Origin: a virus
DNA length: 64,000 nt
Direction: 5' to 3' (one strand)
IMG/VR virus record: IMGVR_UViG_3300044974_000943
The notes under the pieces were generated by a model. That model saw only the letters and a program-made list of their open reading frames with translations. It did not search any database and was not told the DNA's origin. Shown piece by piece: positions 39,030 through 40,636 of the stretch. How positions within the stretch are numbered: position 1 is the stretch's first letter; each line of letters begins with the position of its first letter. A program made the translations under genes and the position numbers.

Positions 39030-39792
39030 TTGAAAATGAAGCGCTAGTACTCAAGTACTTTCAGGGGGTGTTACCCCTCCGTCTACCAGTGAGGTAAATT
39101 CGCGCAAGAGGATTAAGCAGATTTGAACTGCGTCGGGACACCTTACGCAACCATGCGTCTATGTTTGGACTCGAACCAACTCACGGTATCCTATGTCAAA
39201 TATAGTAGTACCACCACTTCATCCAAATTGAAATGGCGCTCCCACTTTATAGCGCCAAACTGTTCGCTCTTTGAAGTTATCTACGAGGAGGGAGATGTCT
39301 CCAAGTGGCAAGATTGCAATCCTGACTGACTCTACTAACCAAAGGCTCATGACTGCCTCCACTTTTCGACGCTTGATGCAGAGCTTGCTTGCCCGAACCA
39401 CTTCTTATTTACTCACAAATTCAGAAGCTAGGGAACTGTTGGTGAGTTACTAACGTTGCGCTGATATGCGTCTACACCTTGGAGAGGTTGCTGGATAGTC
39501 CTGTCCTAGACCCAACTTTGCAGAGCTTGATTACTTAGGCTCAAGTTACGGCTGGGGTTAGCAGGTGCGTACCCACAAATCGAGTATTGACTATTCCTCG
39601 AATATCCAGATTGCAAAGAGGGGAATCCTAAGACCGCGACCTCTTTGCTGTTGTGGTGCTGGGGAGAGTTAGTGAGTGATGCGCGTAATTACTTCACGCA
39701 CCCTTAAGTATTGCCTATTCCTTAAGCACCCAAGCCTGTAGTTTGCTTTGAAGAGTCACCTCCGTACTTACTCACTACCCTGCATTGCTGCA
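39030..39792 (-). ncRNA. candidate large structured non-coding RNA (~760 nt)
   Basis: ORF-free gap in a gene-dense genome; many stems, repeated loop motifs, two T-loop hairpins, possible pseudoknot, upstream TATATT promoter. Confidence 0.6.
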
Positions 39793-40636
39793 TCTTCTTT
39801 AATATAACTCGACCTCTTTTTCTGCACATCTATCAAGAGGAATATTTACATAAAATTTATTGTTGGTACGGTCAATGAGAATTTCACCAATATCAAGTTT
39901 TGGGTCAAAGGGGACGTAGCCAAACTCCAAAGATATCACCTCGGACAGACTCAATTGTGATGCGACGTTTATTACATCTAAAGAAAAGTTAAGGAAGTTC
40001 ATTTTCATCACCAAATATAAATGCAGAGTTAGGTTTCTCGACTACGTTTTCTCGATTAGCTTCTTCCAGTACTTCACGGATACGAGACACACGAAAAGCC
40101 TGTGTAGCTGTATTGGGACTGACTGCGGCAATCAAGTCGCGAATAGTGTCGCCATCGATTAGGTAAGCTTCAAACGAGGTCATTTGATTGACTCGACCAA
40201 AGGTGACTTCAGGTGGAAATCTAGTCATATTAATCCTCAAAAAGTTCTACAAGTTCGCAGAGGTTAATATAGACTTCATAATAACCGTCAGAATGAACGT
40301 CTTGCCAAGCTTTTGACCAGATTTTATTAGCTTGTTTCTGCGAGATTTTCAAGTTATTCAAACCGCTTTCTTCTTTAACAAGAGTTTCACAAAGAGAGTC
40401 GATTTCGTTGTTGTGGTCATCTTCTGCCGATTTCACGGTAGTTTTCCAAGTTTCATACTCAGAATTAAATGCAGCTAGGGCATTGCCATAATCAATATAA
40501 TCTTGCGGGGTCGCATCTTTGTCTGGTGCTTGAGGCTTTTTAGGGGGTTTAGTCCATTTACGCTTCTTTTTAAGGTAGTCAAGTTTATCGCTCAAATCAT
40601 AATCGTTGAGGTAAGCGGGAATTTCGATAGTCATGA

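What the first reader, a model, noticed from the sequence alone, without database searches (positions are those of the whole stretch)
39030..39814. ~760-nt ORF-free structured RNA candidate
Seen on the minus strand: a long-range stem TAGTGAGT/ACTCACTA; two hairpins with the same loop GAATAG(G/T)CAATA but different stems (CTTAAG and CGAG); a GCAAAGAGG/CCTCTTTGC stem; CAAGCTCTGCA twice; a possible H-type pseudoknot (ACTCAC/GTGAGT with GCTTCT/AGAAGT); TGGCGCT/AGCGCCA; two T-loop hairpins; and terminal GGGG/CCCC and AGTACT hairpins. Its upstream signal GGTCGAGTTATATTAA nearly matches GGTCGAGTATATTAA upstream of the tRNA-like RNA (37209-37223). Established: phages carry large ncRNAs of this size (GOLLD, ROOL), often near tRNAs. 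I cannot assign this one to a known class by eye.
Basis: partly seen in the sequence, partly recalled or inferred. Interest (0 to 1): 0.75.

Follow-up and report, generated by a model that had tools for sequence, protein, structure and literature searches.

The report
New large folded RNA of cyanophages
The gene-free stretch is a real, expressed gene for a roughly 560-base folded non-coding RNA, found only in a small group of freshwater Pseudanabaena-type phages; it matches no catalogued RNA family, heads a row of tRNA-like genes, and one RNA data set suggests its core may be closed into a circle.

Summary
Comparison with six other versions (phage PA-SR01 and IMG/VR or metagenome contigs) shows compensatory base changes in the hairpins, in two long-range closing helices and in the H-type pseudoknot.

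The 785-nt stretch is composite:
- a large RNA (about 39794-39234)
- a degenerate tRNA-like module (39224-39109), which holds both T-loop hairpins
- a small conserved 3' element (39105-41)

No Rfam family matches, including GOLLD, ROOL, RNase P, introns, tmRNA and HEARO.

RNA-library contigs from three independent metatranscriptome studies cover only this RNA within an 8-kb stretch. One of them is a closed 419-nt cycle that joins 39234 to 39652, so a circular form is possible.

In one relative the RNA is followed directly by real tRNA-Lys and tRNA-Met genes. In two others it ends at its own terminator.

Best reading: a new family of large, modular phage RNA, analogous in setting and layout to GOLLD and ROOL but not a member of either. 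Its function is unknown.

This scan had already found the same family on two other genomes (e1-3598351, e1-5943320). The candidate circular form, the HEARO/IscB insertion in one copy and the tRNA junction are new here.

The parts
39801..39834 (-). Promoter-like region: GATAGATG box and a -10-like TATATT (39806-39801). It overlaps the last codons of the upstream 71-aa ORF.
   Evidence: Conserved upstream of the RNA in all versions, including L027 where it lies outside any ORF. The 3' half of the signal occurs only twice in the genome. The sigma-70 consensus scan did not call it. The transcription start was not mapped.
39653..39794 (-). Variable 5' domain. It holds the conserved purine-rich (Shine-Dalgarno-like) motif at 39764-39746, optional hairpin 1 (39726-39703), and the long-range stem 39777-39770 with 39677-39670.
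   Evidence: The motif is conserved in all versions. Hairpin 1 shows compensatory stem changes in PA-SR01, L006 and L027. The domain is shortened in L008 and L124 and enlarged in L027 and L123.
39613..39648 (-). Hairpin Px (9-bp stem). It lies 4 nt downstream of the 5' end of the candidate circle (39652).
   Evidence: Kept in L008 and L123, replaced by other small hairpins in PA-SR01 and L006.
39491..39609 (-). Domain A, the universal core: a 7-bp closing helix, hairpin 2 (39601-39580) with an invariant loop, a second long-range helix and two inner helices.
   Evidence: Present in all 7 versions. CM R1 scores 122-193 bits in relatives. Many G-U pairs fit only the minus strand.
39298..39485 (-). 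Domain B: an 8-bp closing helix (39485-39478 with 39305-39298), small hairpins, and the H-type pseudoknot (39447-39400).
   Evidence: In L124 three pairs of the closing helix changed on both sides. The pseudoknot helices differ in sequence but stay complementary in the six versions that have domain B. The domain is absent in L123.
39258..39297 (-). Conserved 3' tail: a pyrimidine block followed by AGATAAYYTCAA.
   Evidence: AYYTC is complementary to GAGGT of the 5' motif in all 7 versions, and the two Y positions vary only between C and T. This is read from the sequences and the pairing is an inference.
39234..39257 (-). Terminal hairpin (7-bp stem, 10-nt conserved loop). Its last base, 39234, is the 3' end of the candidate circle.
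   Evidence: Compensatory stem changes in PA-SR01, L027 and L124. Joint 39234 to 39652 in RNA contig X16.
39109..39224 (-). Separate degenerate tRNA-like module: an acceptor-like stem, a T arm, and an inner arm with a second T-loop.
   Evidence: ARAGORN and Rfam do not call it a tRNA. The equivalent position holds real tRNA-Lys and tRNA-Met in L027 and other tRNA-like modules in L006, L124 and PA-SR01.
39041..39105 (-). Small conserved 3' element with a D-loop-like hairpin, the GGGG/CCCC hairpin and the AGTACT hairpin.
   Evidence: 84% identical in L006, where it lies about 550 nt from the core. Also present in L124. One stem pair changed on both sides in both of them.

Best explanation
The locus encodes a previously uncatalogued family of large, modular, highly structured non-coding RNA, specific to PA-SR01-like freshwater cyanophages.

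Shown:
- It is transcribed from the minus strand.
- Its conserved part is two multi-helix domains, A and B, each closed by a long-range helix, with an H-type pseudoknot in B.
- The 5' domain is variable, and a conserved 3' tail ends in a hairpin.
- The RNA is present in environmental RNA libraries, where the contigs laid cover it but not the flanking genes.

Inferred:
- Transcription starts a few bases after the conserved -10-like TATATT.
- The 3' end is made either at an intrinsic terminator (L008, L123) or by cleavage at the downstream tRNA or tRNA-like gene, followed by trimming back to the terminal hairpin (window, PA-SR01, L027, L124).
- The RNA acts in trans during infection as a structural RNA or RNP scaffold linked to the tRNA and translation machinery. 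This is by analogy with the GOLLD and ROOL RNAs that sit in phage tRNA islands. Its invariant loops and junction strands would be the contact sites.

The biochemical function is not known.
For: Homologs and covariation:
- 7 distinct versions were found.
- RNAalifold finds 26 of 76 pairs with compensatory change.
- Domain A has 93% of cells paired, 13 of 32 pairs with change on both sides, and 0 of 500 shuffles reaching this.
- Hairpin 2 has four different stems under an invariant loop.
- The pseudoknot keeps both helices with unrelated sequences in L008 and L124.

Strand: the G-U pairs, the downstream tRNAs and the terminators all have the same orientation.

Not coding: there is no conserved ORF, and 1-2-nt indels are scattered through the alignment.

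Expression:
- 6 metatranscriptome runs from 3 studies hold the stretch, while the DNA library of one of the same samples holds next to none of its words.
- The contigs of the 4 runs laid cover only 39101-39770 of the 8 kb laid.
- Read-through contigs across 39234 have depth 2.1-2.3, against 8.4-29.9 for the core.

Context:
- Real tRNA-Lys and tRNA-Met start 3-5 nt after the RNA in L027.
- The same island holds a tmRNA and tRNA mimics.
- GOLLD and ROOL are described as phage RNAs near tRNA islands, and GOLLD has a conserved 3' region and a variable 5' region.
Against: - No function, partner or phenotype is known.
- The analogy to GOLLD and ROOL rests on size, setting and layout only. Their covariance models do not match.
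- The family is narrow: 7 versions from one phage clade, and none in 185,579 prokaryote species genomes by two motif scans. Covariation therefore rests on few, related sequences.
- The MFE z-score is not significant.
- Contig data cannot give true ends, strand or expression level, and the runs were chosen because they hold this stretch.
- One complete relative carries the gene split by a mobile element, so an intact RNA may be dispensable there.
Confidence: 0.6

Rival explanations
1. The functional species is a covalently closed circle of 419 nt (39652 to 39234: Px, domains A and B, the tail and the terminal hairpin). The variable 5' domain and the downstream tRNA-like modules are cut off, and the ends are ligated by the phage nick-sealing RNA ligase or by a host ligase.
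For: - RNA contig X16 (depth 29.9) is a closed cycle. It runs 39388-39652 and then 39234-39417, with a 30-nt overlap at the ends of the record and no shared letters at the joint.
- Both ends lie at hairpin bases.
- In the joined form the first three bases (AAC) pair with the GTT just before the terminal hairpin, so the ends would meet as a nick in a 10-bp helix (read).
- The 5' end falls within 3 nt of where a variant contig (X19, L123-like) stops resembling the window.
- The junction is absent from IMG/VR DNA.
- The phage encodes an RNA ligase (PF09414) related to the Naegleria nick-sealing ligase.
Against: - The joint is seen in one run of one sample. The other run of the same sample gave a linear contig (39255-39770) that crosses 39652.
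- Contigs are assemblies, and junction-spanning reads could not be counted.
- A tandem duplication in a strain variant, or reverse-transcriptase template switching, is not excluded.
- The three extra base pairs are not conserved in PA-SR01 or L008.
- The ligase is absent from one complete relative that carries the RNA.
Confidence: 0.3
2. The RNA is only a long structured leader of a tRNA or tRNA-like operon. It acts in cis, for example to guide processing or stabilise the precursor, and has no role of its own.
For: It lies directly upstream of tRNAs or tRNA-like genes in 5 of 7 versions. Low-depth contigs read through into the tRNA-like module.
Against: L008 and L123 carry the RNA with its own intrinsic terminator and no downstream tRNA-like gene. 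The core has 4-13 times the depth of the read-through pieces. About 300 nt of conserved, covarying structure is more than known leaders need.
Confidence: 0.12
3. It is a very diverged member of a known catalytic or structural class: RNase P RNA, a group I or II intron, tmRNA, or an omega/HEARO RNA.
For: The two-domain layout, the pseudoknot and the nearness to tRNAs loosely recall RNase P RNA. A group I intron and a permuted tmRNA are reported elsewhere in this island.
Against: No Rfam match at E up to 10 on the region, and none in five relatives. There are no flanking exons. The ends of the candidate circle are A and A, not a terminal G. ARAGORN finds no tmRNA here. No nuclease gene lies next to it.
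Confidence: 0.05
4. It is a ribosome-directed decoy. The invariant 5' motif, close to a perfect Shine-Dalgarno sequence, binds the 3' end of 16S rRNA and sequesters or redirects host 30S subunits.
For: The motif is kept in all 7 versions, while its possible intramolecular partners differ. No start codon follows at initiation distance. GOLLD is reported to pull down ribosomes.
Against: This rests purely on sequence resemblance. The motif is complementary to the RNA's own 3' tail, which explains its conservation more simply. The motif lies outside the candidate circle.
Confidence: 0.08

Closest known systems
GOLLD RNA (Rfam RF02032)
   Same: A large ornate phage-borne ncRNA. It sits in or beside tRNA islands, sometimes with tRNAs attached. 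It has a variable 5' region and a conserved 3' region. It has been found in lake metagenomes, and its function is unknown.
   Different: No match to the GOLLD covariance model at E up to 10 in the whole genome. The present RNA is shorter (about 460-800 nt by version, with a conserved core of about 320 nt). Its hosts are cyanophages. Multimer or cage formation is untested.
ROOL RNA (Rfam RF03087)
   Same: About 580 nt, with multiple pseudoknots. It is encoded by phages and prophages near tRNA islands, and no protein partner is known.
   Different: No match to the ROOL model (the control genomes did not ring either, so this test is weak). ROOL is known from other bacterial phages and prophages, whereas this RNA is in freshwater cyanophages.
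MALAT1/mascRNA-type 3'-end formation (RNase P cleavage at a downstream tRNA-like structure)
   Same: A long ncRNA followed immediately by a tRNA or tRNA-like element whose 5' processing would create the long RNA's 3' end. This comparison is an inference from established knowledge.
   Different: MALAT1 is eukaryotic and unrelated in sequence. No cleavage has been mapped here. Two versions use an intrinsic terminator instead.

Membership tests
GOLLD (RF02032) | Match to the family covariance model (conserved 3' domain) | tested here: not met
   No hit at the gathering score in the window, at E up to 10 in 36700-40100, or at E up to 10 in the whole 142-kb genome.
GOLLD (RF02032) | Phage or prophage location beside tRNA genes | tested here: met
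   tRNA-Lys and tRNA-Met lie directly downstream in L027, and tRNA-like modules in the other versions.
GOLLD / ROOL | Self-assembly into a multimeric RNA cage | not testable with these tools
   Needs cryo-EM or native gels of the transcript.
ROOL (RF03087) | Match to the family covariance model | tested here: not met
   In one search the control genomes did not ring either, so only the cmscan calls carry weight.
Group I intron (Rfam Intron_gpI) | Conserved catalytic core, flanking exons and a terminal G | tested here: not met
   No Rfam hit. No split gene lies around it. The candidate circle ends in A.
Bacterial RNase P RNA | Match to the type A or type B models, including the conserved P4 sequences | tested here: not met
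   No hit at E up to 10, and none in relatives.
tmRNA (standard or permuted) | tRNA-like domain plus a tag reading frame | tested here: not met
   ARAGORN finds none in the window, and Rfam finds none here. The same tools do find a permuted tmRNA elsewhere in L008.
HEARO / IscB omega RNA (RF02033) | Model match plus an adjacent IscB or HNH gene | tested here: not met
   No hit in the window. The HEARO hit in L124 is a separate inserted element with its own RRXRR ORF.
tRNA (for module 39224-39109) | Cloverleaf recognised by ARAGORN or by RF00005 | tested here: not met
   Only an acceptor-like stem and T arms can be seen.

The most novel reading that the evidence does not exclude
The conserved two-domain core is cut out of its precursor and covalently closed into a 419-nt circular RNA. 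Its ends meet as a nick in a helix and are sealed by a nick-sealing RNA ligase, either the phage's own or the host's. To my knowledge this would be the first circular 'ornate' non-coding RNA of a phage.
Probability: 0.3. Interest if true: 0.8.

Novelty: new variant of a known kind. Interest (0 to 1): 0.65.

Why it matters
Large ornate bacterial and phage RNAs (GOLLD, ROOL, OLE) are rare, and their functions are a long-standing open question. This adds a new, unrelated family in the same genomic niche, a phage tRNA/tmRNA island. It occurs in a culturable system (phage PA-SR01 on Pseudanabaena sp. KCZY-C8) and leaves a strong signal in lake metatranscriptomes.

Its modular make-up gives natural variants for structure-function work: an optional 5' hairpin, an optional domain B, swappable 3' ends, and one copy split by an IscB element.

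If the circular form is real, it links such RNAs to phage RNA-repair enzymes.

Tried and rejected
Known families: Rfam at gathering and at lax thresholds on the window and on five relatives gave only noise for this RNA. The GOLLD and ROOL models run over the whole genome gave nothing.

tRNA: ARAGORN found no tRNA in the window.

Thermodynamics: the z-score is uninformative.

Coding: rejected, because no ORF position is conserved.

Search for more relatives:
- Prokaryote genomes: two motif scans plus the CM gave none. One 17.7-bit match in a Flavobacteriales MAG was taken as chance.
- The motif scan CCAAGGTGTAG...CTTGGA in viral contigs gave 85 stretches; among those not already known, none passed the CM.

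Pairings and signals:
- A flank pairing of CACCAC (39658-39653) with GTGGTG (39217-39212) was rejected. The 3' partner is the D-arm-like part of the tRNA-like module and is not complementary in PA-SR01.
- A second promoter at CAATATAAAC in PA-SR01 and L006 was rejected in favour of the conserved TTATAGTAA further upstream.
- The GATAGA box is not enriched beyond chance in the window.
- The sigma-70 scan did not call the promoter, and the terminator scan did not call the terminal hairpin.

Limits:
- The formal pair count for the pseudoknot was not made. MAFFT puts the window one column out of register with PA-SR01, and the script machine was lost, so the pseudoknot was read directly from the sequences.
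- Parts of the laid 8 kb without RNA contig cover are not evidence that the flanking genes are silent.

Full report
SOURCE AND OBSERVATION

The window is the minus strand of an IMG/VR virus record of 142,452 bp, estimated 98% complete. The only isolate relative in the phage collection is Pseudanabaena phage PA-SR01. It has an unannotated gap of about 900 nt at the syntenic place.

The 12-nt loop GAATAG(G/T)CAATA has only these two exact copies in 64 kb. The 15/16-nt upstream signal occurs exactly twice in the whole genome: once before this RNA and once before the twin tRNA-mimic RNA at about 37200.

Folding energy alone is no better than shuffles, with z = -0.23. The case therefore rests on comparison.

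RELATIVES

Motif scans of viral and metagenome contigs, a protein-anchored scan with the neighbouring DUF7873 gene, and a covariance model of the core (R1) gave seven distinct versions:
- the window (the same as L003/L005)
- PA-SR01 (L002)
- L006 (the same as L004)
- L008 (the same as L021/L122)
- L027
- L123 (with L125-L127)
- L124

All are PA-SR01-like phage contigs from fresh water. Two motif scans of one genome per prokaryote species found no copy.

ARCHITECTURE

The RNA has these parts, in order.

1. A conserved promoter-like region with a -10-like TATATT or TATAGT. In L027 it lies outside any ORF, so its conservation is not due to coding.

2. A variable 5' domain. It begins with an invariant purine-rich motif that is close to a perfect Shine-Dalgarno sequence. 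It then carries an optional hairpin 1 and a closing stem. The domain is short in L008 and L124 and several hundred nt longer in L027 and L123.

3. Domain A (39609-39491), present in all seven versions.
   - It has a 7-bp closing helix, hairpin 2 with an invariant loop, a second long-range helix and two inner helices.
   - Hairpin 2 has four different stems under its invariant loop.
   - On the seven-sequence alignment, 93.3% of cells pair and 13 of 32 pairs changed on both sides.
   - No shuffle out of 500 reaches the observed covariation, and slid controls pair at 23-39%.
   - Several invariant G-U pairs would be A-C on the other strand, which fixes the RNA strand.

4. Domain B (39485-39298), present in six of the seven versions.
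   - Its 8-bp closing helix is TCTCCAAG/CTTGGAGA in the window and AAACCAAG/CTTGGTTT in L124.
     - window: ACTCAC/GTGAGT with GCTTCT/AGAAGT
     - PA-SR01: GTCACC/GGTGAT with TCTTGG/CCAAGA
     - L027: ATCACC/GGTGAT with CCTTGG/CCAAGG
     - L008: AACCTAA/TTAGGTT with TGTATTGT/ACAATACA
     - L124: ACTC/GAGT with TTTTCTG/CAGAAAA
   - These were read.

5. A conserved 3' tail. Its AYYTC is complementary to GAGGT of the 5' motif in all seven versions, and the two Y positions vary only between C and T. This is consistent with pairing, but it is an inference.

6. An end structure. In the window, PA-SR01, L027 and L124 it is a 7-bp hairpin with a conserved loop and compensatory stem changes. In L008 and L123 it is a classical terminator.

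WHAT FOLLOWS THE RNA

The last 190 nt of the finding are not part of this RNA.

- 39224-39109 is a degenerate tRNA-like module that holds both T-loop hairpins.
- 39105-39041 is a small element that recurs in L006 about 550 nt from the core, and also in L124. One stem pair changed on both sides.
- At the same position L027 has real tRNA-Lys(ttt) and tRNA-Met(cat), starting 3-5 nt after the terminal hairpin.
- L006 has two tRNA-like modules at this position, and PA-SR01 has a truncated one.

So the RNA heads a fast-changing array of tRNA or tRNA-like genes. The wider island also holds a permuted tmRNA and tRNA mimics.

EXPRESSION AND ENDS

Six metatranscriptome runs from three studies hold the stretch. 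The DNA library from the same sample as X11 holds next to none of its words.

Four RNA runs were laid on 8 kb (34500-42500). Their contigs cover only 39101-39770:
- X11 has a 516-nt contig, 39255-39770, at 100% identity.
- X17 and X19 carry variant forms. X19 continues upstream with an L123-like 5' domain.
- Two 151-nt low-depth pieces (depth 2.1-2.3, against 8.4-29.9 for the core) read through 39234 into the tRNA-like module. This fits a precursor that is processed near the terminal hairpin.

Contigs cannot give the strand, true ends or expression level, and the runs were selected for holding this stretch.

A POSSIBLE CIRCLE

The X16 contig (449 nt, depth 29.9) is a closed cycle. It runs 39388-39652 and then 39234-39417, with a 30-nt overlap at the ends of the record and no shared letters at the joint. 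In RNA sense, the last base of the terminal hairpin (39234) is joined to 39652, which lies 4 nt before hairpin Px. That gives 419 nt.

Points for a real circle:
- In the joined form, AAC (39652-39650) pairs with GTT (39260-39258), so the ends would abut as a nick in a 10-bp helix.
- The junction is absent from IMG/VR DNA.
- The phage encodes an RNA ligase (PF09414) whose nearest solved relative is the Naegleria RNA ligase. From my own knowledge, that enzyme is a nick-sealing ligase.

Points against:
- The joint is seen in one run only.
- The sister run of the same sample gave a linear contig across 39652.
- The three extra base pairs are not conserved in other versions.
- The ligase is missing from one complete relative.

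I give the circle about 0.3.

KNOWN FAMILIES

Nothing in Rfam 15 matches the RNA, either in the window at E up to 10 or in five relatives. The GOLLD (RF02032) and ROOL (RF03087) models find nothing in the whole genome.

The resemblance to GOLLD and ROOL is one of kind: large, ornate, with a pseudoknot, phage-borne, beside tRNAs, and, like GOLLD, with a variable 5' and a conserved 3' part. It is not a member of either family.

MECHANISM AND VERDICT

Shown:
- a real, conserved and covarying structured RNA gene
- presence in RNA libraries
- a modular build
- a position at the head of a tRNA-type array

Inferred:
- the promoter
- 3'-end formation by a terminator or by tRNA-type processing and trimming
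- a trans-acting structural role tied to the tRNA and translation machinery

Rival readings are:
- the circular form as the active species
- a mere cis-acting leader
- a diverged known ribozyme
- a ribosome decoy acting through the SD-like motif

The same family was already found by this scan on two other genomes, with the same general verdict. I know of no paper that describes it, and the searches found none.

Noticed in passing
L124:6010-7345: In one complete relative (146 kb, direct terminal repeats) the RNA gene is split between domains A and B by about 1.3 kb. The insert carries a HEARO-like RNA (E 1.9e-6, below the gathering score) and a 362-aa RRXRR (IscB-type) ORF. A CCAAGGTG motif stands on both sides of the insert. 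This genome also lacks the RNA ligase.
   Followed up: partly
L027:8169-8320: Real tRNA-Lys(ttt) and tRNA-Met(cat) follow the large RNA within a few bases. A third element with a T-arm-like hairpin comes after them.
   Followed up: partly
L008:9214-9540 and L006:7549-7824: Relatives carry a permuted cyanobacterial-type tmRNA downstream of the DUF7873 gene (ARAGORN and Rfam). Rfam and ARAGORN report nothing of the kind in the window.
   Followed up: no
window 39764-39746 (minus): The invariant 5' motif is close to the ideal Shine-Dalgarno sequence (L008 reads TAAGGAGGTGA), with no start codon at initiation distance. The 3' tail carries CTCC or CACC blocks like parts of the anti-SD.
   Followed up: partly
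window 39834, 38118, 35081 and about 37245 (minus): A (GA)TAGATG box stands upstream of several transcription units of the RNA island. The count is not above chance, but all copies are on the same strand and upstream of units.
   Followed up: partly
window 10708-11844 (minus): A 378-aa RNA ligase (PF09414), related to the Naegleria RNA ligase. It is 85-87% identical in PA-SR01, G001 and G003 (with one in-frame TAA in G003). It was not found in G002 (complete) or G004 (64% complete).
   Followed up: partly
L123:4640-4610 (minus): The enlarged 5' domain of the L123-type RNA contains a T-arm-like hairpin (stem AAAGG/CCTTT around a TTCAAAT loop). tRNA-like pieces therefore occur inside some versions of the RNA as well.
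   Followed up: no
window 39530s and 39390s (minus): The 11-mer CAAGCTCTGCA occurs twice. The second copy lies in a stretch conserved in every version that has domain B. The first is the 3' strand of an inner helix of domain A and is not conserved in PA-SR01 or L027. Two such copies in 600 nt would arise by chance about 4% of the time (my estimate).
   Followed up: partly
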